Positions 8,140 through 51,983 of a DNA stretch of 64,000 nucleotides are shown here, one piece after another. This stretch comes from Harriotta raleighana (taxonomy: Eukaryota). Each line of letters opens with the position of its first letter. Within the stretch, counting starts at the first letter, position 1. The translations under genes were made by a program, and so were the position numbers. The notes beneath the pieces were generated by a model. That model saw only the letters and a program-made list of their open reading frames with translations. It was not told the DNA's origin and did no database searches. The stretch spans positions 1-64,000 of the forward strand of contig JBNZDD010013555.1 in assembly GCA_050575255.1 (NCBI GenBank), in the 5' to 3' direction.

Positions 8140-9425
8140 TGTAAGTTTTTTGCCTCATCTTTTACTAAGGAAGAGGCAGATAAATTATTCAATCTGGAAA
8201 TGAAACTCGAAGGTGTTTAGTCATCATTTAGTTATCTTTAGGAGAGATAACTTGAGATTCTATTCACATCACTACTAGCATGGTTGCCTAACAGCTGTGC
8301 AAACGTAAGGTAAATAAATCTCAGGGGTCGGATAAATTGCAACTGAAAGGAACTAAGGGAGGAAGTTACAAGAACTCTGGCACAAAACTTCCAGAAATCA
8401 TTGAATATTGGAGAGGTGCCTGGAGAAAGACAGATGTTGCTTGTATTTTTAAAGATGTAGTAAAAGTGACCTTGGAACCTACAGACCCAGTGAGTTTGAC
8501 ATCCGTCGTCTGTAAAGTTATGGAGACCCTCAATAAAGATAAGATCATGAAGCATCTGTACAGCAATAAAATGATAAAGTCACTATGGGTGTCTGAAGAG
8601 GAACTCAATATGGGTAGTCAATATGGGGTTCTGAAGAGGAGATCCTGTCAATCTAATTTACTGGGTTCCTACTTATTCCCAGGTCAACAGCGTTGTATGC
8701 AGTAAGGAAATTTACCCGATGCTTCACACTGCTCAGAAATCAAACCCAGATCTCTTGCTTATGAGATGAGTTCTCCAACCACTGAGCTACGGGACTCCAC
8801 TTGGTGTGTACAGTTCTGATTGTCATGGTGCAGGAGGGATGAGAATAGGATTGAGAAGATTCAGAGGAAGGCAACCAGATTAATTGAGTAGATGAACGGA
8901 CTGGACTATGAGGAGTGATTAGGTAAATGGGGCGTGTTCACACTGGGAAAGAGAAAGTTGAGCGGTGATATGATGGCTGTTTTTAAGATTCTAAAGGGAC
9001 TAGATAATACAGACCATGACAAGTGAGGAGGACGAAGAGGTAGGGAGGTGCCAGAGAGTGAAAGGATTTGATCACAATCACAAATGAAGTTGATCCATTC
9101 AGTGATGGGGAGCCAGTAGAGCCTAGCCACAACTGGTGAGATGAGGGTATGGAGTTTGGTTTCATCTTGTCCAGAACAGTAGAACTGGGGACATGGCCTG
9201 CGCTTAAAGTGGTAAAATCCCAAACTAATCTGCAGAAACATTATTTCAGTGAGTAAGCGGTAAATCTAGGGAATAGGTTCCCTCAGGAGATGCTGGAAAC
9301 AAAAAGTGTTGATTCATTCAAATGCAAATTGGATAGATTTATTTCAGAAAGTTATATTTCAGGGGTAATTTGAGACAAGTGCAGTATGATTGGGAGAAAC
9401 GGGCAACTTGGACCAATGGGTTCCA
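8140..9425 (+). mobile_element. Decayed CR1-type LINE ORF2/3' fragment interrupted by a SINE head (~8660-8800, minus) and an L2 piece (~9020-9145, minus)
   Basis: Remnant motifs PVSLTSVVCKVME, QYG...RSCQSNLL, EKIQRKATRLI and RGDM-like, with many stops and frameshifts. Confidence 0.75.
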
Positions 9426-20444: not shown

Positions 20445-21243
20445 GTGTTTCATACAGAGAAGTATGAGGTGATACACTTCGGGAGAAGAAATGAGGGGAG
20501 GCAATAAAGGCTAGATAGTACAATTTTAAGAGGTGTGAAGGAACAGAGAGACCTGGGGATTTGTGTTAGTGACTCTTTGAAGGTGGCAGGACAGGTAGAC
20601 AAAGACATTAAGAAGGCATATGGGATACTAGGCTTTATAAATAGGGGTATAGAATACAAAAGTCAGGAAGTGCTGATTAACCTCTATAGGACTTTGGTTA
20701 GACCTCAGCTGGAGTACTGTGTCCAATTCTGGTCACCACATTTTAGGAAGGATATTAAGGCATTGGAAAGGGTGCAGGAGAGATTTACTAGGATGGTACC
20801 AGGAATGAGGGACTTCAACAAGGAAAGGCTAGATAGGCTAGGCTTATTCTTTCTAGAACAAAGAAGATCGAGAGGAGACCTAATAGAGGTTTATAAGATT
20901 ATAAACAGGGTGAATAGGGAAAGACTGTTTCCACTGGTGGGCGAATTAGTGATCACAGATTTAAAATAATTTCAAAACGAAGCAGAGGGGAGCTGAGGAG
21001 AAATTTTTTCACTTGGCGGGCTGTTCGAATCTGGAATACATTGCCTGAAAAGGTGGTGGAGGCCGATTCGATAACAACTTTTAAAAGAGAATTGGGTGGT
21101 TATTTGGGGAGGATGGGTTTGCAGGATTATGAGGAGAGAGCTGGGGAGTGGGATTGACTTTGAATTGCTCGTTTCAAAGAGCCGGTGCAGACTCGATGGG
21201 CCCAATGGCCTCCTTTTGTGCCGTAAAATTTGATGATTCTATA
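20445..21243 (+). mobile_element. 5'-truncated CR1-type LINE (ORF2 C-terminus and 3' UTR)
   Basis: EQRDLGI...AYGILGFINRGIEYKS..LYRTLVRPQLEYCVQFWSP..LERVQERFTRM..RGDLIEVYKI, ending in a gattctat tail. Confidence 0.92.
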
Positions 21244-34077: not shown

Positions 34078-35834
34078 GTACTGTCAGTCTTGACAAGATA
34101 CTTGTTTTTTGAAATACTGCACATTACACAGTACTGGGTGGGTGGCTGAGATTGAACAGGTGGGGAGGTGGTCATCAAAATATTCTTTACACGGTGGGTG
34201 GGTGAAGGAATTCTCTGTCACAAGGAGAACCCTCAAGGAGGGTTCATAAATTCTTTTTAGAAAAGATTTGGTTAGTGTCTTGAAGAGGAGGAATATTAAA
34301 AGATGTGATGGAGTGAGATGAAAACTGTGATTATAATTGTGTGTAAATTATTCTTGTATTTGCCTTGGTGCTTTATCACATTGTCGATGTCTCAAAACCC
34401 TTCACTGGATTCTACTGTAAAGTATGGTGACTGTGTATTTGTAGGCAGGTTAGACTAGGTGGCTCATGCAGAGAAAATACTCCAGTCGAGAGTTCATGGA
34501 TCAAACAGCCCGTTTCTGTTCTGTAATGTTGTAAGATTCTATGATTTCTTGTGACTAGTGTTTTACGTTCACTTTTTAAAGCTGTTTTTTCAATGTTGGA
34601 ATTCTTGCACGGTCCAGGGCCCTGTTTTCCATCCCAGTTGTCTAGAGCAATGCATTGCCCTGTGTACACCTGTATACTCCTATATAAAACTATATGACAA
34701 CAACTTTGCAGTAATGGCATCTTGGCACGTAACGTTTGAATTAAGTGGTGGGTCTTCTATGCATTTGGTCACCAAAATGGTGTACTTTCTACCCACTCCA
34801 CCCACAAGTTTGTTGCACATTTCAGTTAGTATGCTGAAAAGGTTTTTTTCCCTCCTGCTCTCCCACAGGGAGCCAGTGCTGGGTGAATAATTGATTTACT
34901 TCCTTCCTCCAGAAAACTTGTCACTTAACCCCCACGTTGCAGATAACCGATTCCAAATCAGATATCTTTCCCAGGGTCTTGAGAATGGCTTCAGTCTTCT
35001 CCTTCAATTGGTTGATTTAAATCTCAAGCTTAGCATCACTTAACTACATTTTGAAGTCTCAGTATCTTCTTTTCAGCCTTAGTTGTTCCCCAGTCATTAT
35101 CTGGGTGTCTCAATAAACAAAATGTATATTTAAGCCAAGCCTGGCCTGAAGTGCAGACTTTCTTGATTGCTATCTCTAAGGTTGTACGTTAATGGTGTGT
35201 GTGTGTGCGTGCCTGTTGTTGTTGTTGAGCAGTTTTCCCCATGGACCTTAAAGATTTAAGTGTTTCCATAGCACAGTATTTTTTCTGAATCCTTAAATCC
35301 CCAAACCATCTCAAGAGGAAATTGCTGAGGCCCATTACATAACAACAACAAAAATCTGGGGAGGGAGTTTCCGCTTGACTCTTCCTTGTGAGCTTGTTGG
35401 AGGGAATTCCCAGATGTATGTGCTTTCCTAATTGGAAAGATGCCCTTCCCTGGAAATGTATGTTGCGCTTGAAGATCAGGCTAAAATTGGCACAAAGTGT
35501 ATTGGAAACTGGTCAAATATTTACTGTAAAACTGCAATGCTCTGCGATACTCTTAATTGGTAAATCTCTGAAAAACGTGGCCAGTTAACATTTTTATATT
35601 ATCAACCAGTGCATTCATGACTGTGACTCTTCAAGAAAACCCAACAACTTGTAGTCATATAGTGCCCTCATGCAGGGTATCATCGCAGAACATATGAACT
35701 CTCTTTTCACGTTTTATTCCCTTCCCTCCCACCCCACCTCCGACTCACACAAAGGTTTGACCACAATATAAGTTTACTTCTGTGACAAAAAAATTAGGCG
35801 GGCAGGCAATGAAAACAGATTCAGACACAACCAC

Positions 35835-35899
35835 TTAATGGCAGAATGTGACACCACTTCCAATTCAGAATTGGAAGTGGTGTCACATTCTGCCATTAA
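35835..35899. repeat. Perfect 32-bp inverted repeat with a 1-nt spacer
   Basis: TTAATGGCAGAATGTGACACCACTTCCAATTC-A-GAATTGGAAGTGGTGTCACATTCTGCCATTAA. Confidence 0.97.
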
Positions 35900-36657
35900 A
35901 TTGAGAACATCGACCAGCCATGTTTTTGTTAATTACCATCTCAGGGTTCAATTTTCATCCTGTTATTTTTATTCCCACTTTCAGTTTGTCTTTTACTTGT
36001 GCAAGTCTGCGGCAATGTCCCAGCTATGGCCGTGGTCCTTGGCTTTCTTTATGGATTGTCCTTCGGGACACTACCCCAGGAGAATGGTGTTATGCGGATG
36101 CATAAATGTTGTAGTTGTGACCCAGCCCAATATCTGACATGTACTTTATTTGAGGGAATTTCCATTTGAGATGTCAGCATGGCTTGGAAACATTCTCGCC
36201 TCTTGAGTCAGGAGCTTGAAGGTTTTGTATGCAGTATTAAGGTTGCTCAGCAAATACATTTGGTGCTAAATTGTGACTTACACACTGCATTAACACTAGG
36301 TATGTGATGGCCAGTGTTTAAAAAGCCAGGTCTTGCGTGGATGGCTGGACTAAATCCAGTGCGGTTATTGAAGCCAGAAAGTCTACGCTGAATATTTAGC
36401 TAACTAAACCTTGAAAAACTGAACAACTGTTGTTCTGCAGCCAGCCTTTCTATGACCTGACAAACTGACAGCAATAAATTTTGGGCCTTGGGATGTGCGG
36501 AACACACTTCTGGTCATGATGCCAAATAATAATAAAAAAAAGCAAGAGTTCATAAATTTATTTAGAAGGGAACTAGATGGATGCTTTATTTAAAAACAAA
36601 ATAAGAAAGTTATGGGGAGTGAGCCGCAGATAAGGATAAAAGTATGCAGTTTATTGT

Positions 36658-36902
36658 GGGGTTCTGAAGCTCAACAGTTAGAGCACTTGGCTCGCAAATA
36701 AGTGATCTGGGTTCAATTCCCAGCAGGGCGAAATGTTGGCCATGTTTCCTTATTCCACACCTCTGCTACCTGGCAGTAAGTGGGAACCTTGTTGTCAGTC
36801 GATTAGCGGATCGCTTTTCATGGGTTAATAATTCCTTTTGTAAAAAAGAAAATTGTTCTCTTGATCCATGACTGGTTGTGCCACACTGCTGTATGCAATT
36901 GA
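36658..36902 (+). mobile_element. Older long-variant tRNA-SINE (3' truncated)
   Basis: Head, then ctctgctacctggcagtaagtgggaaccttgttgtcagtcgatt shared with 5731-5775. Confidence 0.7.
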
Positions 36903-37084
36903 GAAGTGTGTGTTTCTGATCATTGTGGGGGCTCCACACGAGCAAACGAGTTCTCACAGGGAGAATCAAAATGAGAGTAAGGAGTCTGCCAGCTCTGCAA
37001 ACTGTAAAGAGGAAAGTAAGAAAAATCTAAGTCTATAAATTACTTGTTTGGGTGAATAGTAAAGATCTCAGTAAAGATTTATGC

Positions 37085-37355
37085 AGTCCTGTAGCTCAGT
37101 GATTAGAGTACTCGCATTACAAGCAAGAGACCTGGGTTCAATTCCGGGCAGGAAACCTTGGGCAAATTTCCTTACTCCACACACCTGATAAGAATTCCTC
37201 CAAAAAAAATTGTTCACTCCAATCCATGACTGTTTGTGGGCCACTGCTGTGCGCAATTGGCTTTTCACGTGTTTCACCCACAAAATTCACTTTACTGAAT
37301 GTTCTGTGAAGCACTTTGAGACGTCTGGAAGATGTGTTATGGCAATATATCATAT
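37085..37355 (+). mobile_element. Near full-length tRNA-SINE
   Basis: Head, body and decayed tail. Confidence 0.85.
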
Positions 37356-37729
37356 GTACATATAATTATTTGGAATCAGAAGGCTATTGAAACTTCCTGG
37401 GCCTGAAACCTGCTTCTGTTTTTGCGGGTGGAAGCGGTGAAATTTCCAAACAGTTTGAGTCCACGCTCACATTTTCTGTGTGGAGGTTTGGGGACTGATT
37501 GAATTAAGCATTCTTCTCGTCTTGTTTTCCTGCATGCCAAGTTCCTGGTAAAAATTTGATTTATCTCATCGCCAAACATCTTGGAAGTGCTTCACAGGAT
37601 GTACCTACCGAAAGATGTAGTGACAGCATATTTGTAGGCAAGCCATTCATTTGTGGAAATAGAATAATTACAAAAAATGTACTCCACTGCAAAAATTTCT
37701 GTAAAAAATTGCCAATTTAGGTCTCAGCC

Positions 37730-37890
37730 TGGCAGGCTCAGTTGGTAACACTCCTACCTTTGAATCAGAAGGATGTGGGTTCATGCCCATGTCAGCCTCG
37801 GTCTCGCTTACGCTCCAGTCAGTGCTGAAGGTGCCCGTCTTTGTCAGAGGTCTTTTTTCCATCTGCCTATTTAGGTGTACATTAAAGCTC
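37730..37890 (+). mobile_element. Old Deu-type (SacSINE1-like) SINE 5' fragment
   Basis: ggctcagttggtaacactc..tgaatcagaagg.tgtgggttca...aggtgccc.gtcttt...aggtgtacattaaag. Confidence 0.6.
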
Positions 37891-37915
37891 ACAGAGAATT
37901 GCTGTTACCCTTGTT

Positions 37916-38224
37916 ATAATAATAATCCTTGCATTTGATATAGTGCTTTTCACGTCTTCTAGACATCCCAAAGCGCTTCACAGAATATACTGTAAAGTGA
38001 ATTGACTGTATATTTGTGGGCAAAACGCGGCAGCCAATTGCGCACAGCAGCGTCCCCACAAACATGGATTGCAATGACCAATTTATTGTTTTTTTTAATT
38101 TGATGGATTATTATCAGGCGTGTGGAGTAAGGAAACTTGCCCAGGGATTCGCCCTGGTGAGAATTGAACCCAAGTCTCTTGCTTGTGAGGCAAGTGCTCT
38201 AACCACTGAGCTACAGGGCTCCAC
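37916..38224 (-). mobile_element. Full-length tRNA-SINE
   Basis: Reversed consensus. Confidence 0.92.
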
Positions 38225-41065
38225 AATGTCAATGAACAGAACGTAGGCAAGTTTCTCCTCAACCGGGAATTTGAGCTGGATGGGCCGCGTTTCATCCTGC
38301 AATGTCTCTGCCTGAACCTTGACTTTTTGAGTCTGCAGTAATGTCATTGTGAAGCTGTATTAGGCGCATCAGTGTGGAATGGATGGGCGAACAATAGTTT
38401 ATCAGGATCCACTGAAACGCAGTTTGTCTTCTGCATTGCTACACACAGACAATGTCCTTGCTGTGAAAACGCTTCCCGTCTGTCTCTGGCTTCAACTCGG
38501 GTCGTGTAAATTGATCAATCCAGTGAAAATCCTCATCCGCCCGAGGGAAAAACAACACCGTCACTGTCTTTATTCAGGCAATCCCAATAGTTGCAAAGTA
38601 CATCTGATTTTATCTGGTTAGACAAACTGAATACATATTGCAAAAGTATTCATGCTGTATATGTGACTAGTTGTAAGTCCTGGACCTCAGCGACTGGAAT
38701 AGGATCAAAGATCTGCTGAATTAGATTTCCACGACTGAAATATCTTTTCCTGAATTAATTCTTTTTTGTCCTGTTGACCTCAGATTTATAACTGCCCCCT
38801 GTTTATTGTAATCCGTCTTTCTACTAGCCCGAAACAGATTTGTTGCAGGAATGCCACGTTTCGCCTACAAACTATAGTCGATCCACTTTCCAGTATATTC
38901 TGTGAAGTGCTTCGAGACATCTAGAAGACGTATAAGGCGTTATATCAAATGGAAGAATTATTATTAGTTTCCATCCCCAGCTCGAGTGTTCAAACAGTAG
39001 GGTTAAGTGCTTTGCAATGTTTTCCTGACATGAAAGCCGCTGTGTAAATGTAAAATTGTATTGAATGTTCCTTCGTCATTCATCATTTATCTGAAAAGGT
39101 GAATGCAGGTTAATAGATTGAGACATTGTATGTTTCACACTAATCATGTAAGCCTTGGTAGAGATTTGTAACTTGTAAGGATTCTAGTCCTTTTAAGGGA
39201 TCCATGTTACAAATCCAGCATGATATCTGTGTCTGTTGTGAGTTGGGCAGATGTCCAAGAGAGGTTCCTTGGGTGCAAGGGATCTTGTGGTAATGTAATA
39301 GTTGAAGCGGGGAATCGTGTAGACAATTTCAGTTTAAAGCAGCGTATAATTCAGTTAAAACTCCCTGTTATTCCTCAGCAAATAACTAATTTGTCTTAGA
39401 TTGGCAGGTTAAGTAAACCACACAGAATGTTTATGGATGATCTGACCATTTGAATGTTTTGTGGCCACAGTCTGACTTGCAAATGTTTTTCTGTAGAGGC
39501 TGGTTACTTTTGTCTTGTTCAATTAACTGTGATTCTGTGATGCAAGGGAAAAGCAAATGGTCTGGTTTTAACTTTTGATTTAGCAAAGTTTGTTCATTGG
39601 TTTCCTCTGATTTGGTGTCTCCACAAAAGAGGTGCAGAAGAGAGCAACACGGCTGATTTCAAAAGCAAAGAGGATTAGGTTGAAATCTTGAGCTGTAGTC
39701 TCCATGCTAATAACGTCGGGACGTCCTCCCGATGTGAAAGGCACTCTATAAATGTAATTTTGTTGTTGCAATAAGGGGAAAGTACTTCATCAAACTATAT
39801 AAAATCAATCCTGTCCACTATGACTTGCCTTTACTCAAAAGTCACTGATTTGTAGAAAGAATCCTCTGATTAAAATGGGAAACAAAGCAAAATATTTCCT
39901 GTTATTAGTTAATTAGATGCTGTGATCGAGTTATTGTACTATAGAGGTTTTTTTTTCTCTGTTCTATCCTCTCCTCTACTGCCATCCCACACGCGCACAC
40001 ATATACCCATGATTACAGCCAAATTGCTAACCATAGGCATTTGACAGATCTGCACGGCACATAATTAAAACATGCTCTAACATCAGTGGTATAGAAAATA
40101 TATTAAAGTCTCTTTTGAGGATCAAATGATACTCGGGCAGAAAAACCTTTGTACTTGCCAGTAAATGCCAAGTTACCTGCATCTTGTTGTTCAGGCTGCC
40201 CAGGCTTGTGCCAAGAGAACAAGTGGAAGGCCTATACATCTGACAGTGGCTCTTTGGCCAGGTGTGAAGGGGAATGTTAGCGCAACACAGACGGACTCAG
40301 GCTATTTGATTTCCTCTCTCTTCCTCGTCCCCTGTCGTGAGATACCAGATTCTCTCTGCCAGACAGATCAGGAATTGAGCCGAGTAGTGATTTGAGATTC
40401 TATGTCACACGAGTGCTCACGTCATTTGGGATCATCAGGGATGTGCTGGACATAACCATTGAAGATTGTGGAACCTCAAATATACCTGTGGATATGCTTT
40501 GCAGTTGATCCCACTCATAATTGCCTGTGAAAACTTAGCTGCTGTGTTCTGTGGTCACATCTGGCCAGAGGGAAGGAAAAATTAAATAACTTCCATTTTG
40601 GTTAGGCACACATGTGGCTCAAGTTGTGTCTGGGCTTCCATCTGATCCCAGTGAGGCATCCGGTACCTTTTGAGGAGACTCTGGGAAAGAACTCTGCTCG
40701 TCTTGCAATAGAGAAACAATAGTTTAGTCTGATTTTTTAAAAAAATAGAGAACGCAGAGTTGTGCTCCCAAGTAAAGAGCCTGGGTGTGAGGAATTGGCA
40801 AATGTCATTTAGTTCACCATCTGCAGATGTCTGATATTGTTTTGAAAATTGTAATACAGTAAAAGCTTGATTATCGTGCAAACAACCAACAGGCACGCTC
40901 AACCAACCAGTATCTCCAAATATAAATAAAATTGGAGAAAACTGTACGCAGTTTTCTCCACACGTATGCTCACTTTGCGCACACACACTTATTAAACTTA
41001 TCGAACACGAATGCGCTGTTTTCAAGGAATATAACCCCCGGGATCGGCAAGGGTTGACTGTACTA

Positions 41066-42707
41066 CAGTAAAACCTTGTTTATCTGTGACTCGAAAAACC
41101 GGAAAACACGTTCAATGGCTATCTCCAAAAAGTCCTTATTCGATTAACCAGAAGTTATCCGGCGAATAGTGATGACGCTTTTAATGTCGGGTTTAAACTC
41201 GCTCCTGCTCCTTTTAAAAGTTGCGGGGTTTTTTTTACCTCCTTCGGATGAGCGCTGCCGTTGCGAAGTTAAGTATAAATAATAAAGTACTAACACTGGT
41301 GTAGGTAGTGGCCAGAGAGAGGGAGGGAGGGGTTGGGGTGGGGGATCAGGGGGTGGAATGGAGATATGGAGGAAACGGGGAGAGAGAGAGTGGGGGAGAA
41401 TGGAGAGATGGAGGAAAGGGAGAGAGAGAAGGAGGGGGGAAAGCATAATGGAGCGAGAGAGAGAGAGTGATGCAGGCAGGTTGATGCAGAGAGAGAGTGG
41501 GTGGGGGTGGATTGGAGAGATGGAGGAAAGGGAGAGAGAGGAGGGCGGTGCAATGGAGAGATGGGGGAAAGGGAGAGAGAGAGAGACACAGATGGGGGAA
41601 AGCATAATGGAGCAAGAGAGAGAAAGAGTGATGCAACAACAACAACAAAAAGATTGCATTTATAGAGCACGTTTCACGTCGGGAGGACGTCCCAAGGCAC
41701 TGGACAGTTGGTTTAAGACCCGAGCAGGGGGAAATGTTCAGGGAGGGTGGGAGTGAGGAGAGGATAGACAGTCGAGAGGGGAGCTGAAGACACGGTCGAA
41801 GAGAAAGGTCTTGAGACCAGCCTTGAAAGAGGAAAGGGAGGAAGCGAGGCGAAGGCACTGGGGGATGGAGTTCCAGAGCCTGGGGGCTGAGCGGCTGAAA
41901 GCCCGGCCGCCAATGGTAGGATGGTTAGGGCAGGGGATGTGGAGCAGACCAGAGCCAGAGGAACGGAGGGTACGGGCAGGTAGATAGGGGGATAGTAGGT
42001 CGGAGAGGTAGGAGGGAGCAAGGCCGTGAATGGCCTTGTAGGTAAGGATGAGGACCTTGAATTCGATGCAGGCAGGTTGATGCAGAGGGATGGAAAGAGA
42101 GAGGAAAGGGAGAGGGGTGGGGGGAGATGAGGGTTGTGGACAGAATTTATAGGATGGATTCAGACTGAATATCTTTGAGGGTGTGTGTGCTGGCCGCTAG
42201 TCGGGTCTAAACTCGCTGCTGCTCCTTTNTAGGATGGATTCAGACTGAATATCTTTGAGGGTGTGTGTCTGTGTGTGTGTGCTGGCCGCTAGTCGGATCT
42301 AAACTCGCTGCTGCTCCTTTCAAAAGTTGTGTTTTCCTTTACCTCCGTCGAATCAGTGCTGTCGTTGCAAAATTAAGTATAAATAATAAAGTACTAATAC
42401 AATATTCTGTTANGGGTCTAAACTCGCTGCTGCTCCTTTCAAAAGTTGCGTTTTCTTTTACCTCCGTCGAATCAGTGCTGCCGTTGCAAAATTAAGTATA
42501 AATAATAAAGTACTAATACAATATTCTGTTATTATTTAGTCTATTATTAGTATGGTATGTGTTACAATAATTTTTAATTCAATTTTTTTTAACAAATTTT
42601 TTTTAAATTATATATTTTTTTTAAATTTAAAAACCCTGTTCAATCAGAAATCCATTTAACTGCCACTGGCCAGGTCCCATGGGTGCCGGATAAACAAGGT
42701 TTTACTG
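41066..42707 (+). mobile_element. MITE family A, long copy, nested in the B-like element
   Basis: Perfect 19-bp TIR CAGTAAAACCTTGTTTATC / GATAAACAAGGTTTTACTG with TA on both sides. Confidence 0.9.
41636..42064 (-). mobile_element. L2 3' fragment inserted in MITE A
   Basis: (caa)n tail, reversed LWNSIP..FKAGLKTFLF and EFKVLIL motifs; GATGCA on both sides. Confidence 0.88.
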
Positions 42708-43599
42708 TATATATGAATGCTTTATTGGTAAGGATCCATACAATATTCTGTTATTATTTAGACTATTATTAATATGGTATGTTTTAAAATAAGTTAATTT
42801 TTTTGGTAGGATTTTCGGCAACTTGCCACTCGATTATTTGATATATTTGATTAACCGGCACTGGTCAGGTCCCGAGGATGCCGGATAACAAACCTTTTAC
42901 TGTAGATCATTTGGAAGTAGATGACTTGCTTTTAATGCTGTTTTGGATATATTCTGCCATTTACAGAGTTATAAGATAATTGAGGCAATGCCTCTGTCTG
43001 CAGTCACCAGACCTTACCTCATGGCAGTTTCTCAGCAAACCTTCATGCAGAACAATATGCAAACGCTGATTTGATACCAGATAAACCTGTCCATGCAATA
43101 GTTGTTTTAGCAGCACATATATCAATTGATTTGATCAAGGTTTTCATATTGTGCCACTTTATAGCAGCTGTTGTTCATTTTTCTTTTGAGACACCTCAAA
43201 GCGCTTCACAGAATACAGTATACTGTATTAAAGTGAATTGTCTATTTTGTGAGCATGGGCTGAATGCTAATATAATTGCAGTTGGGGTTGGTGGAGGAGA
43301 AAGGAGCACCTGCACAAAGTGGCCTGAGGCCTCTACCTTCCTGTACTGCCCAGCAATGTGTTCCACTATCAGTTGAGCAGCAGTTACAGCTTAAATTGCC
43401 ATCAATGCCTCTGCACCAGGTGTGCACTTATTGCCCCCTAGTTAATGCAGCTCATAATTGCAGGTAGGAAATTGCATTGAATGGTTGAGGTGGGGAAATG
43501 TATCTGCTATAAAATTGGTTCTGTGTTGAAGATGTGATTGTTGGGATGTGAAGACAATACAGAGTGAACAGCACTCTATTAGTACAGGCGTTAGTACTT

Positions 43600-43845
43600 G
43601 TGGAGCTCCTGTAGCTCAGTGGTTAGAGTATTCGCCTTACAAGCATGAGACCTGTGTTCGAATCCAGGCAGATCAGGGCAAAATCTTGGGCAAGTTTCCT
43701 TACACCACACACACGCCGAATAATAATCCCTCAAAAAAAAACACAATAAGAAAATTGGTCATTTCAATCCACGACTGTTCTGTGGGGACACTGCTGTGCG
43801 CAATTGGCTGCCGCGTTTCACCCACAAATGTACAGTCAATTCACT
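43600..43845 (+). mobile_element. tRNA-SINE lacking the 3' tail
   Basis: Head and body; ends at caattcact. Confidence 0.88.
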
Positions 43846-44044
43846 GACACTGCTGATGGGTAGTGTGCTAACCTTAAAGGAATGGACCAGTTCATCATTG
43901 ATTTCATACAGTAATACTGTGGAGAATACCTCCTGGGTAAACCAGACCAAATGGTGGTTTAATGACATGGGCCGGGTAGCCTGTAATTTGCATTGACGTG
44001 TGATATGTCAAGAATCTAAACACCCAAGTACGATGTGCCCTGAA

Positions 44045-44348
44045 GTGGAGTCCCGTAGCTCAGTGGTTAGAGCACTTGCCTTGCAAGCGAGAGAGCTGGG
44101 TTTGATTCCACGCAGGGCGAAACCTTGGGCAAGTTTGTTTACTCCACGCACAAACCTAATAATAATAATCCCTCAACAAAATAAACTATAATAAATTGAT
44201 CATTTCAATCCTCGACTGTTTATGGGACACTGATGTGCGCAATTGGCTGCTGCGTTTCGCTGGCAAAATATAGTCAATTCACTTTACAGCATATTCAGTG
44301 AAGTGCTTTGAGACGTCTAGAAAACGTGAAAAGCACTACATCAAATGC
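44045..44348 (+). mobile_element. Full-length tRNA-SINE
   Basis: Head with TGC anticodon-position variant, body and tail. Confidence 0.9.
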
Positions 44349-44726
44349 CCAGCGGGTGGAAATATAGGTAATACTGTACCCAAATAGTCTGAAGACAATG
44401 TGAAGAGAATTGATCATCTGGTTTTGTGTGTGTGGGGGTAATGGGTTTGCTGTGATTAATGTTATTATAGTAATGGTGCTAGAGATTTAATTAACACAAC
44501 CAAACAAAGCTTTTTTCCTAGAGAACACAGAGTTAATCTTACCCTTACTAATGTGGCTTTACATTATTTAGCCCCCCCGCCCCTGTGTTATCCTTGCAAA
44601 TGTGTGCAATGAAAGTAATTAGTGGGTTCGACAAAATTCTTGGCCGCCAATATAAACTTGGCAACAGCTGTCTGCTGGCATATTCTCAACTGCTGAGCGG
44701 GTACGAGTCTGCAGCCCACAACCCTT

Positions 44727-45183
44727 GGAGCTCCTGTAGCTCAGTGATTAGAGCACTCGCTTTATAGTCCTGTAGCTCAGAGGTTAGAGCACTTGCCTTA
44801 AAAGCATGATGTGTATTTTTCAAAGCAGATGCAGGTTGAGACAAGGAGCTCATTGTAAATTGAAATTCTTATTCCTTCAGTCCAGTCATTTTGGTTTCAG
44901 GAAATTTGTTTAATGCAAATGGATATCAATTCCAGGCAGGTCAGGGCAAAACTTTGGGCAAGTTTCCTTACTCCACACACCTGCCTGATAATAATTTGTC
45001 CAAAAAAAACAATAATACATTGGTTATTTCAATCCAGGACTGTTTGTGGGGACACTGCTGTGCGCAATTGGGTGCCGTGTTTTGGACACAAATATACAGT
45101 CAATTCCCTTTACAGTATATTCTGTGAAGCACTTTGAGACGTTTAGAAGACGTCTATATCAAATGTGAGGATTATTATTATTG
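44727..45183 (+). mobile_element. tRNA-SINE with a tandemly duplicated head and ~110 nt interruption
   Basis: cctgtagctcag..ttagagcact twice (~44733 and ~44769); body resumes ~44928. Confidence 0.8.
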
Positions 45184-45282
45184 TATCAGGTAGGTAAAAA
45201 CTCAGAAGAATTAACTAGGCCACATAGGGAACATTCTAGGATCCTGAGGAAATACCTGAGAGCCCAGATAATATTTTCAGGA

Positions 45283-45470
45283 ACAAAATACAAATTACTA
45301 CAGATGCTGGAAATCTGAAACAGAAACAGAAGTTGCTGGGAAAACTCAGCAGGTCAGGCAGCATCCATGGAGAAAGGAAAGTGAGTCAATGTTTCGGGTC
45401 CACGACCCTTCGTCAGAACTGGGGCAGGTTAGGAGGGAGAGGTTTTTAAGGACAAGTTAGAGAGGGGAAG
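45283..45470 (-). mobile_element. Penelope-like retroelement terminal-repeat fragment with a hammerhead-ribozyme motif
   Basis: cagatgctggaaatctgaaa..cagcaggtcaggcagcatc..gtttcgggtc..gacccttcgtcagaac resembles an abundant shark repeat (recalled). The minus strand reads CTGACGA-a-GGGTC-gtg-GACCC-GAAA. Confidence 0.6.
45384..45420 (-). ncRNA. Minimal type I hammerhead ribozyme motif (probably decayed)
   Basis: AGUU/GACU stem I, CUGACGA core, GGGUC/GACCC stem II, GAAA, then CA-UU. Confidence 0.55.
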
Positions 45471-46267
45471 GCAGGACAAAAGGAAGACAAAGAAGACAGA
45501 AAAAGAAGACAAAGGAGAGAATGTATTAATTGATGGGTGATGGTGTGAAACAAAAAGGGGTGGGAAGAAGAGGTGGGGAGAAGAGGAGTTTTTCAGGAGT
45601 TGAGTAAACATTGAGGACTGGAGGAGAGCAAATGTTATTTACAAGAAAGAGCAAGACTTGAGCCCAATGTTTCAAAGAAAGCAATATTACAGGGTGTGGA
45701 GAGCAAACGATAGAGTGATATTAAATCAAGTGGTTCAAGTTTCTGCCTCTAAAAAGCTAAGGTTCTCTGATCCGATGTGTGTGAAGGGGGCAGAAATACT
45801 TGGGAGAATTAGCTACAGTAGAATTAAATCCAGGTTACTCTTTAAAGTGCAGACAATAAATGCACAATCACCAAATTGATCGTACCTCTTGAATGGTGAG
45901 AGCAGGGAAGTGAGAAAATGGTTCAGATCTTTGAAACGCTGAGAAAGGTTTCCGATTTAAATGAGCAGCCTGATTCGAGGAGCTGGATGAAACGTGTTTC
46001 ATGAATTCAATGACTTGAACAAGATACAAAATTCTCTCTTTCACTCCAGCGAGATAGATTTACCAACAGAAGTAGAACAAAACCAGGTAACCGTCTGCTT
46101 TTCCGAGTGAGGGGAATGGAATTTTGGAAAGTCAGCCGGGGGTCTCGCAAATGTGGAAACTCATCATCTGTATCTAAACCAGACTATCTGTGAAGCTCAG
46201 CCAACATGAAAGGCTCTATTAACAAATGTGACTTCCTTATGTGATGTTCTTAACTCTCCTTTGACAG

Positions 46268-46411: not shown

Positions 46412-47002
46412 GTAAGAAAATAATATATATAGTACACACAAAACACACACACATCATGAAGCCCTGTTATAATATGGTGCATAAGATCCATAAATACCAT
46501 CCTATAATGAGGAGCGATAGACGCTCACTGGACATGTACTGCGAGCCAACCCTCTCCCTACATTCCAACCAGTTCTCCGCTTGAATTTTTTTCTTTTTAA
46601 AAAGACCCAATTCCAGGTTCATCAGGTTTCTGTCGGCATCATCTCCTCAGTATTCTGTGTGCGAAAAGCAGGATGGTTAATTAATAGTACAGATGTCGGC
46701 CATTTAATTCAAGAGAACTCGAGCGTGCTGGAAGTGTGTGGACTGTACAACAACAACAAAATTACATTTATAGAACGCCTTTCACATTGGAAGGACATCC
46801 CAAGGCACTGTACGCATATGCAATGAATGCGGTCCACACCTCAATTTGTGTTACAACATAATTCACACTAAAGTTGGGCAGTACTATTATTATATTTATA
46901 ATATGGCACCACTTGTGGTAAAGCATCTCACTTTTCAATTCATATGGAGTATTCATTTGTAAATCTTGGTACTTTCACTTATTGACTTGTAACAACATGG
47001 TT

Positions 47003-47337
47003 GAGCTCCTGTGGCTCAGTGGTTAGAGCACTCGCCTTACATGTCTTACAAGCATGAGGCCTGTGTTCGAATCCAGGCAGATCAGGGCGAAACCTTGGGC
47101 AAGTTTCCTTACTCCACATGCCTAATAATAATCCCTCCAAAAAAAACTACAATAATAAAATTGGTCATTTCAATCCATGACTGTTTGTGGGGACGCTGCT
47201 GTGCGCAATTGGCTGCCGCATTTCGCCCACAAATATACAGTCAATTCACTTTACAGTATAATCTGTGAAGCGCTTTGGGACGTTGATAAGATGTGAAAAG
47301 CGCTATATCAAATGCAAGGATTATTATTATTATTATA
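47003..47337 (+). mobile_element. Full-length tRNA-SINE
   Basis: A box, B box GTTCGAATCC, body and (att)n tail; short duplication in the anticodon-like loop. Confidence 0.93.
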
Positions 47338-48910
47338 ATGCTATAATTGGTAACAGACAGTTCTATAAGTGGATCCTCTTACATGAGAATAAAGTAGATG
47401 GATTATTTTGAGTATGTACTTGAATTGTAGCGAATAGCTACTATTTTCTTCTTTGTTGCCTGTGTTGTAATGGCATTAGAATTGTTTTTGCAACTAAGCA
47501 ACACAACATAGAGAGAATTTCACCTGTTTATTGTGTCACTCTTGACTGATTTTACCCAATCCCATTCATTGTTCAGGAACACAAGTCCAATTGCAACATG
47601 AATACCAACCAACGCAGATGTGATAACAGACACTATAATAATCCTTGCATTTGGCAGTCTTGTCATGCCATCGAAACATCTCAAAACAGGATTCAACTAA
47701 TCTGTTAAAAATATAGTGACTCTTTTCTGAATTCAGATTCCCCTTTTTTGAAGTTCCTTTTCTGAAGTCGCTGCCTTATGTTGTATGTCGCCCAAGTGAT
47801 CATTTATGTTTTAGCTTGACAGCTGAGTGTCTTCAAACTATTTCATCTGTGCTAGTGACGGGATTGGGCAGTGTGAAAGAGAGATGTTGGGGTCCATCAN
47901 GAATATAGTGACTCTTTTCTGAATTCAGACTCCCCTTTTCTGAAGTTCCTTTTCTGAAGTCGCTGCCTTATGTTGAATGTCGCCCAAGTGATCATTTATG
48001 TTTTAGCTTGACAGCTGAGTGTCTTCAAACTATTTCATCTTTGCTAGTGACGGGATTGGGCAGTGTGAAAGAGAGATGTTGGGGTCCATCAACTAAGCTC
48101 TATCCTGCTTTCACCTGACATCCACTTTCTACTGGAAAACTATCGAAATGTTGGTGCTTTGCTGCAGTTAATATTCGTATAACATCTCCCCACCCCCCCA
48201 CCCACCGTCCGATGGCATTAGTGGCAAGCCTATCTTGCAGCTCCCAAACCAGGTGCAAGGTTTTGATGGGTTCATTACTCATGTTGAATGTCTTATGAGA
48301 TTGAGCCATTTTAGTTGACTTGTTGATTGTTACAGAGCAGTGTTGCCAGAGGTCAAGGAGTAGCCAGGCAGCTCAATGGTATGTCTGGTGGGAATGGACC
48401 CCAAAGGATAATTCTTTCTTGCACTGCAGAAGGGAATTTTTCTCAAGAGTGCCTAGTGGTTACTGGATTTAGAGGTGCATTGTGTAACAGCGGAAAGTTT
48501 TGATTCTGACATTTGAAATACTAAATCACGTGTGATTTTTCATTTCACTGATGTTGAAATGGATCTGTTTGTTTGTTGCAGACGGGAATGATGTCAGGGA
48601 TTGCTGGGAATCTGTGATAATTTCTGGAAAGAGAATACCAAAATGATCAGAATATTTTCTAACCTTGACACTTCCAAAAGATAATGTCAGGTTCTGTAAA
48701 ATACAGCTTGAGTTACTGAACAGATTTATGTTGTACATAAACCAGATTTCAGAATTAACAGTGTTCGAGATGAATTTGGTAGTTGAGCAATCTCCCAGTG
48801 GCAATAACATTTGATCCCAGTACTGTATTTACAAGTTCTTGTTGCATAATCCACAGGCAGTTTTTTTTGTCTACAGACATTTCCAGACCAGTGCTTCAGT
48901 TTTACGTGTA

Positions 48911-49707
48911 CAGGTATCACCCAATTTATGACAGAGTTGCGTTCCTGAAAAATGTCACATAACTTGAAATGTCATAAATCGGAAGGCAGATTCCCATGTG
49001 GTCCCATCATATAACCCAAGATGTGTTCTTTTGACAAAATTTTAGCACCTTAAACCCATTAAAATAACACACAAAACACACACATAACATAGAAAACACA
49101 CAAAATAACACACGCAGGCAAGACTTAGTATCTAAAGTAATGACTTCGTGTTTTTTTTACCACTAGCGGTATTACTGCTGCTCATTTACCTTATCGGTCT
49201 TCTGACATTGTAAAAATGCGTTAAGAGGCTGTAAATCACTCAAAATTGAGTGGTGTCTCTTCAAAAGAAGCTAGCTTTTAAAACACTAGAAAAAAGCTTT
49301 TACCGCTTNGAAAAAAAAGCTTAGAATGCTAAAAAAAAAAGCAACACAGCTGACCAATTTGTATAAACAGTGTACTTACAAAAGAGCTGAGTCCACAAGC
49401 TGAGCATCAATCATGATATCGCCCTCTAGTGGTGGGAGGCTAATTTGGATTGCAGCAAAAAATGGTTGGGAACCACTGACGTAGTGACATGCTATTGGTC
49501 AGTTCAAACGCTTGGATACACTAAACGACTGCAATTTTAATGCAAAATACACTATATACTGCGCAAGCGCAAAAAAGATGCGCCAATTTTTTTGTCGATA
49601 AAACAAAATCAAATGTCATATGTCGATTTTTAATAAAGTGTTATAAAATTATGTTAGTTAAATCGAAACAGTGTAAATAGAACAGTCTTAAATGGGGGGG
49701 ATACCTG
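48911..49707 (+). mobile_element. Tigger/pogo-like non-autonomous element (family D), long copy; right end re-assembled again to 49828
   Basis: TA|CAGGTATCACCCAATTTATGAC ... GTCTTAAATGGGGGGGATACCTG|TA; contains a hAT-like end (gttgggaaccactg, ending 49478). Confidence 0.8.
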
Positions 49708-50214
49708 TACTCCAAAGAATTAGGCTGTGGAGCTATGATTTAGANCGATTTTTAATAAAGTGTTAAAAAATTATGTTAGTTAAATCGAAACAGTGTAAAT
49801 AGAACAGTCGTAAATGGGGGGATACCTGTACTCCAAAGAATTAGGCTGTGGAGCTATGATTTAGAGCTGTCGATTTTGGGTTTTTAAAAAAATTTCTGAA
49901 GGCAATANAGCTGTCGATTTGGGGTTTTTAAAAAAAATTCTGAAGGCAATATTTCGAGGCGAGTTCCCATTCTCTGCTCCACATTCACCCCATCCCACCC
50001 CAACCAATCCGTTCACTTTTTGTTTTTTTCAACAAGATTTGAAGCCAGCAAAAATGTGTCAGCTAAGAGACTTGTTTTACAACAACCAAAAAATTATATT
50101 TGTAAAGTGCCTTTCACATCGGGATGACATCTCAAAGCACTAAATTCTAATTTTACATCAGGGAGCGAAAACTGAAACATCCCAAATGACTTTTATTTGA
50201 CATCACAATTTGAT

Positions 50215-51048: not shown

Positions 51049-51454
51049 GTAAGTTGTTTGTTATTCCATTGTTCTCCCAAGATCATGTAAAAATGTCTGC
51101 AATTTCATGACTTCCACACTGAAAGCCCATAAAAACTGACAGTTTCTCTATCAGAATTAACATGTCCATGTCGTGTTGGGAGCCTTTTGCTTGTTGTACA
51201 ATTAAGTGTTGTTTGACTACCCGTGGCTTGATTTTTTTTTGCTCCGATACAGTATTGCACTGATCTAACCTCTTTGAACACACAATGAAGAATTCACTAT
51301 TGTACCATGCTGGTGACTTGGGGAAACAAATAAACCCTTAGTTCTAATGAAGGGTCTTGGATCCGAAATGAAGTTCATAGGTTTTTCCTTGTCCACTTAG
51401 AGATAAAGGCCTGTCATTACGAGATCCAAGCAGGGAGACCAGAGCATCTAGCAT

Positions 51455-51645
51455 AATAAAAATAATAATCCTTGCATTTGATCTAGCGCTTTTCACATCT
51501 TATCAATGTCTCAAAGTGCTTCACAGAATATACTGTAAAGTGAATTGACTGTATATTTGTAGGCAAAATGTGGCCGCTAATTGCGCACAGCGGTGTCCTA
51601 CTACTAGTCATGGATTGAAAATGACCAATTTTTATTATTATGTTT
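51455..51645 (-). mobile_element. 5'-truncated tRNA-SINE
   Basis: Reversed tail and body. Confidence 0.88.
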
Positions 51646-51983
51646 TTAGTGGGAAATTCCTACCCATGGCTCCTCTTTTCCAACTAAGGGCAGGATATAT
51701 TACTTCGTGGATAAATGGTGTCATATAAGGATCATTCGGTATCTTTTATATTGATTTTCACCCTTTAAATATGCACGTTTTTCAGTGAGTCAATTTTGAA
51801 GCAATTTTTACTGAAGAATTTAAAAAAAAACTGAATTTGCCAAATGAGAAAAAAGTGTCTGTGATAAGGCCAGAAACCTGCTAGCTAGTGGGCCAGTTGA
51901 AGAATAGTGAATAAAGCCGACTTTAAGGGTCTTTCACTCCAGGTCTTATGACTAAAGGAGACAATCCAAGATATTGATATCTT

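What the first reader, a model, noticed from the sequence alone, without database searches (positions are those of the whole stretch)
45384..45420. Hammerhead ribozyme motif, antisense in NID1 intron 8, inside a Penelope-like repeat
Seen: the minus strand reads AGUU-CUGACGA-A-GGGUC-GUG-GACCC-GAAA-CA-UU-GACU. That gives both conserved hammerhead boxes (CUGANGA, GAAA), a perfect 5-bp stem II, a 4-bp stem I (one G-U pair) closing after a UH triplet, and essentially no stem III. Known: Penelope-like retroelements carry minimal type I hammerheads that are proposed to cleave as dimers through a palindromic stem III, and an extra nucleotide between A9 and stem II occurs in natural hammerheads. Inference: the ancestral sequence was GAAACGUU (palindrome AACGUU), and this copy lost it by a CpG transition. 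The family, rather than this copy, may be catalytically active.
Basis: partly seen in the sequence, partly recalled or inferred. Interest (0 to 1): 0.7.

Follow-up and report, generated by a model that had tools for sequence, protein, structure and literature searches.

The report
Dead Penelope end with minimal hammerhead
The motif is a real minimal hammerhead ribozyme sequence in a 307-base leftover of a Penelope-type jumping gene, lying backwards in a nidogen-1 intron and likely inactive; the one unusual point is that most sister copies begin right at the ribozyme's first bases, likely because the element's transcript starts there.

Summary
The motif sits in a 307-bp 5'-truncated end (45283-45589, 9-bp target duplication) of a Penelope-like retroelement. 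Other copies join it to RT, a Cx4CxxC linker and a GIY-YIG-type endonuclease (Neptune-type). An older subfamily swaps stem II G-C for A-U. The copy is antisense in nidogen-1 intron 8 and has no same-strand partner, so it is likely inert. Such hammerheads were described in 2014, and the scan noted this family eight times in this genome, once with the same 5' edge. Added here: 47 of 88 unbiased copies start within 45412-45421, at stem I, with no pile-up at the cut site. The edge matches an initiator motif. A G absent from longer copies precedes it in 83 of 152 non-C cases genome-wide, as expected from a copied cap. Short copies are likely whole cDNAs of the capped, uncleaved leader. No RNA start was shown.

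The parts
45283..45589 (-). 5'-truncated 3' end (pseudo-LTR plus tail) of a Neptune-type Penelope-like retroelement
   Evidence: Homology to genome copies runs 45283 to about 45590; same end joined to EN/RT in L061, L171/L184, L306
45384..45420 (-). Minimal type I hammerhead motif; predicted cut between 45388 (U17) and 45387
   Evidence: Sequence, fold, family columns; numbering from established hammerhead knowledge
45389..45392 (-). Positions 15.1-16.1, the dimer palindrome: ACAU here, ACGU in the family majority (CpG decay at 45390)
   Evidence: G in 61, A in 15, T in 5, gap in 2 of 83 copies; 6-nt self-duplex +2.8 versus -3.5 kcal/mol for natural copy L005
45396..45408 (-). Stem II hairpin, 5 bp with 3-nt loop; first pair G-C here, A-U in an older subfamily
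45416..45422 (-). Initiator-like CCAGTTC (YYANWYY, consensus recalled); A at 45420 is the first base of stem I and the inferred +1 of the element's transcript
   Evidence: 5' ends of copies pile up here; extra G before the A
45283..45316 (-). Optional tail of about 33 nt between the two clusters of 3' ends; in fuller copies it runs on about 36 nt to the ORF start
   Evidence: 3' ends cluster near 45283 and 45314-45320; tail-to-ATG junction in L196, L213, L192 and L276-L305
45421..45589 (-). Part of the element's 3' untranslated region upstream of the hammerhead
   Evidence: Aligns to L004, L016, L027, which continue into the endonuclease stop
45274..45282 (+). 9-bp target-site duplication, first copy
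45590..45598 (+). 9-bp target-site duplication, second copy
34078..46267 (+). Nidogen-1 intron 8 (host intron)
   Evidence: GT and AG ends read; exon count; identity

Best explanation
This is a 5'-truncated, CpG-decayed end of a Penelope-like retroelement that carries the family's minimal hammerhead motif, inserted antisense in nidogen-1 intron 8 and likely inert. Shown: family membership, boundaries, target duplication, orientation, loss of the ACGU palindrome. Inferred for the once-active family: two hammerheads in tandem ends would pair through ACGU to form stem III and cut after GUU. Transcription likely began at the A of stem I (45420). Reverse transcription likely began internally at the two tail sites, 104-138 nt downstream, and usually ran off the capped, uncut 5' end, giving the many short solo, fold-back and tandem copies (about 55% confidence for this step). 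Copies like this one, which run on into the 3' UTR, would come from read-through or cut-and-religated RNA.
For: At least 1383 candidate copies and 456 exact hits of a 39-mer. One locus holds RT, linker, EN and this end (L171/L184); L306 holds end, tail, ATG, RT and EN in order. Homologues of the EN region carry PF01541, PF26215 or PF00078. CpG positions are substituted in 123 of 571 cells (21.5%) against 5.6% at other non-core sites, as for neutral decay. Stem II pair 1 is A-U in 13, G-C in 10, G-U in 3, A-C in 1 and other in 3 of 30 loci with stem II unconstrained. 5' ends: 47 of 88 in 45412-45421, hazard 0.093 per nt against 0.008 upstream and 0.004-0.014 downstream; 3 of 88 near the cut site. 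The older subfamily has the same edge, and so do reads or contigs of other organisms. G before A45420: 83 against 69 A/T genome-wide; 17 of 73 short against 1 of 69 long copies. Untemplated G at full-length L1/SVA insertions is attributed to cap copying (PMC3287187, passages). Internal RT starts at the tail and uncut RNA as the dominant template were shown for an anole element (PMC11167929, parts 1-2 of 4).
Against: No cleavage assay and no RNA start: stranded reads of a related organism cover the repeat on both strands about equally and show no place where many molecules begin. In the strictly unbiased subset the G excess is absent (2 of 6). 44 of 73 short copies have C, not G, before the A, so many templates reached at least one base further. 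T precedes the G in 58 of 83 cases (hand count), and the few cases with an exact target duplication show TG, GTG, TTG or nothing rather than a lone G (5 of 40); fold-back on stem I could also give TG or GTG. The stem II covariation is one historical event. Pfam did not score the decayed EN pieces, and RT only at E 0.006. The Neptune label rests on the linker motif, with no tree.
Confidence: 0.9

Rival explanations
1. The short copies come from a separate non-autonomous master element (SINE- or retrozyme-like) that happened to begin at the hammerhead, not from the full element's own transcription start.
For: 53 of 88 copies start at 45412-45428 and are 100-145 bp; 15 of 53 have a shared flank of 7 nt or more. 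Non-LTR retrozymes are described as non-autonomous derivatives of these ends (bioRxiv 10.64898/2026.07.22.740005, parts 1 and 3 of 5 and passages).
Against: The same edge occurs in the older subfamily (only 1 of 29 flagged with upstream sequence by script, 2-3 by eye). Copies that start at the edge also run on into the ORF start (L279, L283, L292, L303). No head-to-tail arrays were seen: same-strand neighbours are isolated pairs 94-1738 nt apart.
Confidence: 0.25
2. The 5' edge marks a 3' splice site (pyrimidine tract, CAG at 45421-45419) or a back-splice junction, as in Drosophila virilis, where the intron end maps to the 5' end of helix I.
For: The sequence upstream is pyrimidine-rich and has a branch-like CTAAC. 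PMC4209133 reports the coincidence for D. virilis (parts 1-2 of 4). At least 12 of 28 distinct ORF-start loci join the ORF's first 109-582 nt directly to the edge.
Against: No shared upstream exon precedes the edge in short copies. ORF-side junctions vary, and the commonest (about +227) has a CCCAG microhomology with no GT donor after it. No spliced joint appeared in the listed read joints (some rows were not shown).
Confidence: 0.12
3. This particular copy is a functional, co-opted ribozyme acting on an antisense RNA or, in trans, on element RNA.
For: All 11 scored core positions and both stems are intact here; only 20 of 52 copies reaching 45417 keep the full core.
Against: It is antisense to nidogen-1, so the pre-mRNA cannot form it. 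The dimer palindrome is broken. No same-strand partner lies in the window. Single minimal motifs showed no cleavage in vitro and dimers little (PMC4209133). Six differences in 158 positions from the majority fit ordinary decay.
Confidence: 0.03

Closest known systems
Minimal type I hammerheads of metazoan Penelope-like elements (Cervera and De la Pena 2014, PMC4209133; parts 1-2 of 4 read, 2 of 3 supplement files searched)
   Same: Both core boxes, extra base between 9 and 10.1, G10.1-C11.1, short stem I, no stem III, palindromic 15.2-16.2, location in the pseudo-LTR, mostly solo copies
   Different: Cartilaginous fish are not named in the parts read or supplements searched. Stem II is 5 bp. 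The paper calls solos probable truncations and, in the parts read, reports no preferred 5' edge.
Poseidon element PAc of the green anole (Frangieh et al. 2024, PMC11167929; parts 1-2 of 4 read, supplement search empty)
   Same: Two RT start sites define an optional tail downstream of the hammerhead; uncut RNA is the main template; no read ends at the cut site
   Different: There the ATG lies in stem II and the tail is coding. Here the hammerhead and tail are upstream of the ATG and the protein has a Neptune-type linker.
Neptune clade of EN+ Penelope-like elements (Craig et al. 2021, PMC8557442; passages read)
   Same: RT, CX2-5CxxC linker, C-terminal GIY-YIG, hammerhead near the 3' end, 30-40 bp tail, inverted and partial-tandem insertions
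   Different: No intact ORF among the copies examined; no phylogenetic placement made
Drosophila virilis Penelope (Schostak et al. 2008, PMC2377424; passages read)
   Same: Transcription starts inside the pseudo-LTR at an initiator, upstream of the ORF
   Different: There a 46-nt exon and a 75-nt intron precede the hammerhead. Here the inferred start is the hammerhead's first base.
Non-LTR retrozymes (bioRxiv 10.64898/2026.07.22.740005; parts 1 and 3 of 5 and passages read)
   Same: Short non-coding hammerhead-bearing derivatives of pseudo-LTRs; reported in one chondrichthyan genome
   Different: Defined as tandem arrays; this copy is a solo insertion with a target duplication

Membership tests
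Minimal type I hammerhead of PLEs | Core CUGANGA and GAAA, U16.1 and H17 | tested here: met
Minimal type I hammerhead of PLEs | Stem II with G10.1-C11.1, extra base after A9, short stem I | tested here: met
Minimal type I hammerhead of PLEs | Palindromic 15.2-16.2 for dimer stem III, in the family majority | tested here: met
   CG in the majority, G in 61 of 83
Minimal type I hammerhead of PLEs | Palindromic 15.2-16.2, in this copy | tested here: not met
   CA; self-duplex +2.8 kcal/mol
Minimal type I hammerhead of PLEs | Covariation in the stems | tested here: inconclusive
   One compensatory change (G-C to A-U, Fisher p 3e-4 but one event) and G-U versus A-U in stem I; other pairs do not covary
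Minimal type I hammerhead of PLEs | Self-cleavage as a dimer | not testable with these tools
   Needs an in vitro assay
Rfam hammerhead families | Score at the family threshold | tested here: not met
   No hammerhead hit
EN+ Penelope-like elements | Single ORF with RT and C-terminal GIY-YIG joined to this end | tested here: met
   In other copies, broken by stops and shifts: L171/L184, L306; absent from the window copy
EN+ Penelope-like elements | Pseudo-LTR, optional 30-40 bp tail, inverted and partial-tandem copies | tested here: met
   inverted neighbour flagged in 37 of 88 copies
Neptune clade | CX2-5CxxC linker between RT and EN | tested here: met
   C-x4-C-x2-C in several copies, e.g. 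L162, L170, L171 variants
Neptune clade | Placement in an RT phylogeny | not tested
   No reference set was available; no tree was built
Non-LTR retrozymes | Head-to-tail arrays with a hammerhead in each unit | tested here: not met
   Solo in the window; only isolated pairs in fetched loci; no genome-wide array search

The most novel reading that the evidence does not exclude
In this family the hammerhead is the first 37 nt of the capped transcript. Because reverse transcription starts internally just downstream, the element mostly copies only its own leader, from the tail to the cap, and then inserts, folds back or jumps to an RNA further along. That would explain the thousands of solo minimal hammerheads in animal genomes as whole cDNAs of uncut leaders, make dead copies a fossil map of the transcription start, and leave ribozyme cutting and rejoining as the route to the rarer long copies.
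Probability: 0.5. Interest if true: 0.55.

Novelty: new member of a known kind. Interest (0 to 1): 0.3.

Why it matters
The locus itself is ordinary and gives no reason to think nidogen-1 is regulated by a ribozyme. The family statistics bear on an open question: what the Penelope hammerhead does and which RNA is copied. They predict a capped start at the first base of stem I and uncut leader RNA as the main template, which 5' RACE or CAGE and the published in vitro system can test directly.

Tried and rejected
Rfam scans gave no hammerhead. Fold z-scores do not separate the motif from shuffles. Selection on the core among copies: 15 of 561 against 114 of 2053 substitutions (p 0.004), set aside because local alignments end at mismatches near the 5' core and base composition differs. 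Pile-up at the cut site: not found. Back-splicing at the commonest ORF junction: no GT donor. A templated G from a subfamily: 1 of 69 long copies. No listed holder of the stretch is on record as RNA; the raw RNA reads laid are one sample of a related organism with fixed differences in nidogen exon 9. Alignment A1 had two mis-specified rows and was not used. A second frequent box-pattern repeat (L307-L312) showed no stems by eye. Lunse et al. 2017 is not held and is known to me only through the review PMC6765202 (passages); a guessed id gave an unrelated paper. Paper searches for a reported start or 5' edge at the hammerhead found none, and none treating shark elements; Repbase, Dfam, subscription papers, figure-only supplements, one file of PMC4209133 and the bioRxiv supplements were not seen and may hold it.

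Full report
Observation. It folds into stem I and stem II, though no better than shuffles. The two boxes alone are chance-level in the window, 7 against 5.7 expected, and Rfam reports no hammerhead. The host gene is nidogen-1 on the plus strand. Exons read from translated frames at about 17.5, 18.7, 21.7, 25.0, 26.7, 28.0, 29.8 and 33.9 kb precede the intron 34078-46267, which is therefore intron 8 (my reading). The organism is likely a cartilaginous fish: a skate protein is among the element's homologues, and earlier scan notes say chimaera (not tested).

What it is. The motif lies in a repeat spanning 45283-45589, flanked by a 9-bp duplication. The genome search gave 1383 candidates, and a 39-mer downstream of the cut site has 456 exact hits with none for the reversed control. 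Longer copies continue upstream into a GIY-YIG-type endonuclease end. L171/L184 holds RT motifs, a C-x4-C-x2-C linker, the endonuclease and this same end in one run. L196/L306 shows the other junction: 3' UTR, hammerhead, tail, about 36 nt, then an ATG leading to the N-terminal region, RT and EN. All long copies examined carry stops or frameshifts. Homologues of the EN region carry PF01541, PF26215 or PF00078; Pfam scored my decayed pieces weakly or not at all. This is the layout of EN+ Penelope-like elements with a Neptune-type linker (PMC8557442, passages).

The hammerhead in the family. I took 90 of the 456 anchor places in contig order, which gave 88 distinct copies. Of 52 copies reaching 45417, 20 keep the whole core, 14 also the palindrome and 8 also all of stem II. 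An older subfamily has A-U at the first pair of stem II and a Watson-Crick stem I. With stem II unconstrained, pair 1 is A-U in 13 and G-C in 10 of 30 loci. That is one compensatory event: supportive, not strong.

This copy. It is antisense to the host pre-mRNA, has lost the dimer palindrome (self-duplex +2.8 against -3.5 kcal/mol) and has no same-strand partner in the window. Single minimal hammerheads did not cleave in vitro and dimers did so weakly (PMC4209133). It is most likely inert.

The 5' edge. Of the 88 copies, 47 begin in 45412-45421, 6 in 45422-45428 and 12 further upstream; 18 begin inside the core and 5 in 45378-45393, of which 3 lie near the cut site. The chance of ending per base is 0.093 at the edge and 0.004-0.014 elsewhere, apart from the 7 nt just upstream (0.057). 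The older subfamily shows the same edge. In reads of a related organism, depth drops about tenfold across 45420. Contigs of another organism have 141 and 182 loose ends at the matching two bases. The edge matches an initiator consensus with A45420 as +1 (consensus recalled).

The extra G. I first saw a G before that A in ORF-junction copies, then tested it. It was 15 of 24 in all loci then held and 11 of 17 without the discovery set, but 2 of 6 in the strictly unbiased set. Genome-wide, of 613 exact motifs, 83 are preceded by G (CG cases not counted) and 69 by A or T, against about 28% G expected from flanks. G precedes the A in 17 of 73 short and 1 of 69 long copies. Against a simple reading, C precedes it in 44 of 73 short copies, T precedes the G in 58 of 83, and only 5 of 40 G cases had an exact duplication, with extras TG, GTG, TTG or none. 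T is also common just before other start positions, which would fit untemplated A added to the cDNA end (inference). Untemplated G at full-length L1 and SVA insertions is attributed to cap copying (PMC3287187).

Mechanism. In the anole element, reverse transcription starts at two internal sites that define the tail, and uncut RNA is the main template (PMC11167929). Here the 3' ends cluster near 45283 and 45314-45320. If the transcript starts at the hammerhead, copying from the tail reaches the cap after 104-138 nt. The product can insert, fold back (inverted neighbour in 37 of 88) or jump: at least 12 of 28 distinct ORF-start loci join the first 109-582 nt of the ORF straight onto the edge, and such joints also appear in another organism's contigs. 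Long seamless copies like this one would need read-through or cut-and-religated RNA. These steps are inferred. The RNA laid, one sample of a related organism, shows both strands about equally over the short unit, a sense bias in the upstream 3' UTR and no start pile, so it neither shows nor excludes the start.

Novelty. Minimal hammerheads in Penelope ends, tails and inverted copies are in print (PMC4209133, PMC8557442, PMC3846280 passages). The scan noted this family eight times in this genome, once with the 5' edge; my reading was recorded before I saw these notes. Searches found no paper reporting a start or cap signature at the hammerhead, but the library is incomplete. Verdict: real, correctly interpreted, a new member of a known kind; interest 0.3, carried mostly by the family-level lead.

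Noticed in passing
window 51340-51368 (+): A second, short and more decayed piece of the same hammerhead, sense to nidogen-1, with G5 changed to A and nothing matching after GAAA, so not a working motif.
   Followed up: yes
window 36660-36731, 37087-37153, 38149-38220, 43601-43845, 44049-44348, 44726-45182, 47001-47340, 51449-51654: Many copies of a tRNA-derived SINE; five pass Rfam's tRNA threshold. One ends about 100 bp from the Penelope remnant.
   Followed up: no
L277, L279, L282, L284, L285, L289, L291, L292, L295, L297, L303, L305: Partial tandems in which the ORF's first 109-582 nt are joined directly to the hammerhead's 5' edge, with clusters near +110 and +227.
   Followed up: partly
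L307-L312 (small contigs): Another repeat family matching both hammerhead boxes (about 10 of the first 100 rows) but without evident stems; near-identical flanks suggest a satellite or other repeat.
   Followed up: partly
L196, L213, L192, just upstream of the ORF's ATG: A pyrimidine tract ending in AG lies two bases before the ATG, and another at window 45316-45315; either could be an intron acceptor, but no donor was identified.
   Followed up: no
L326 (G000:C13090): One copy appears to end on its 3' side exactly at the predicted cut site (45388); single case.
   Followed up: no
window 20508-20966 and about 8292-8702 (+): Stop-free stretches that look like CR1/L2-type LINE fragments (resemblance recalled).
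   Followed up: no
window 47710-48091, 42295-42531, 49624-49821: Near-identical local duplications of 76-190 nt, possibly assembly artefacts at gaps.
   Followed up: no
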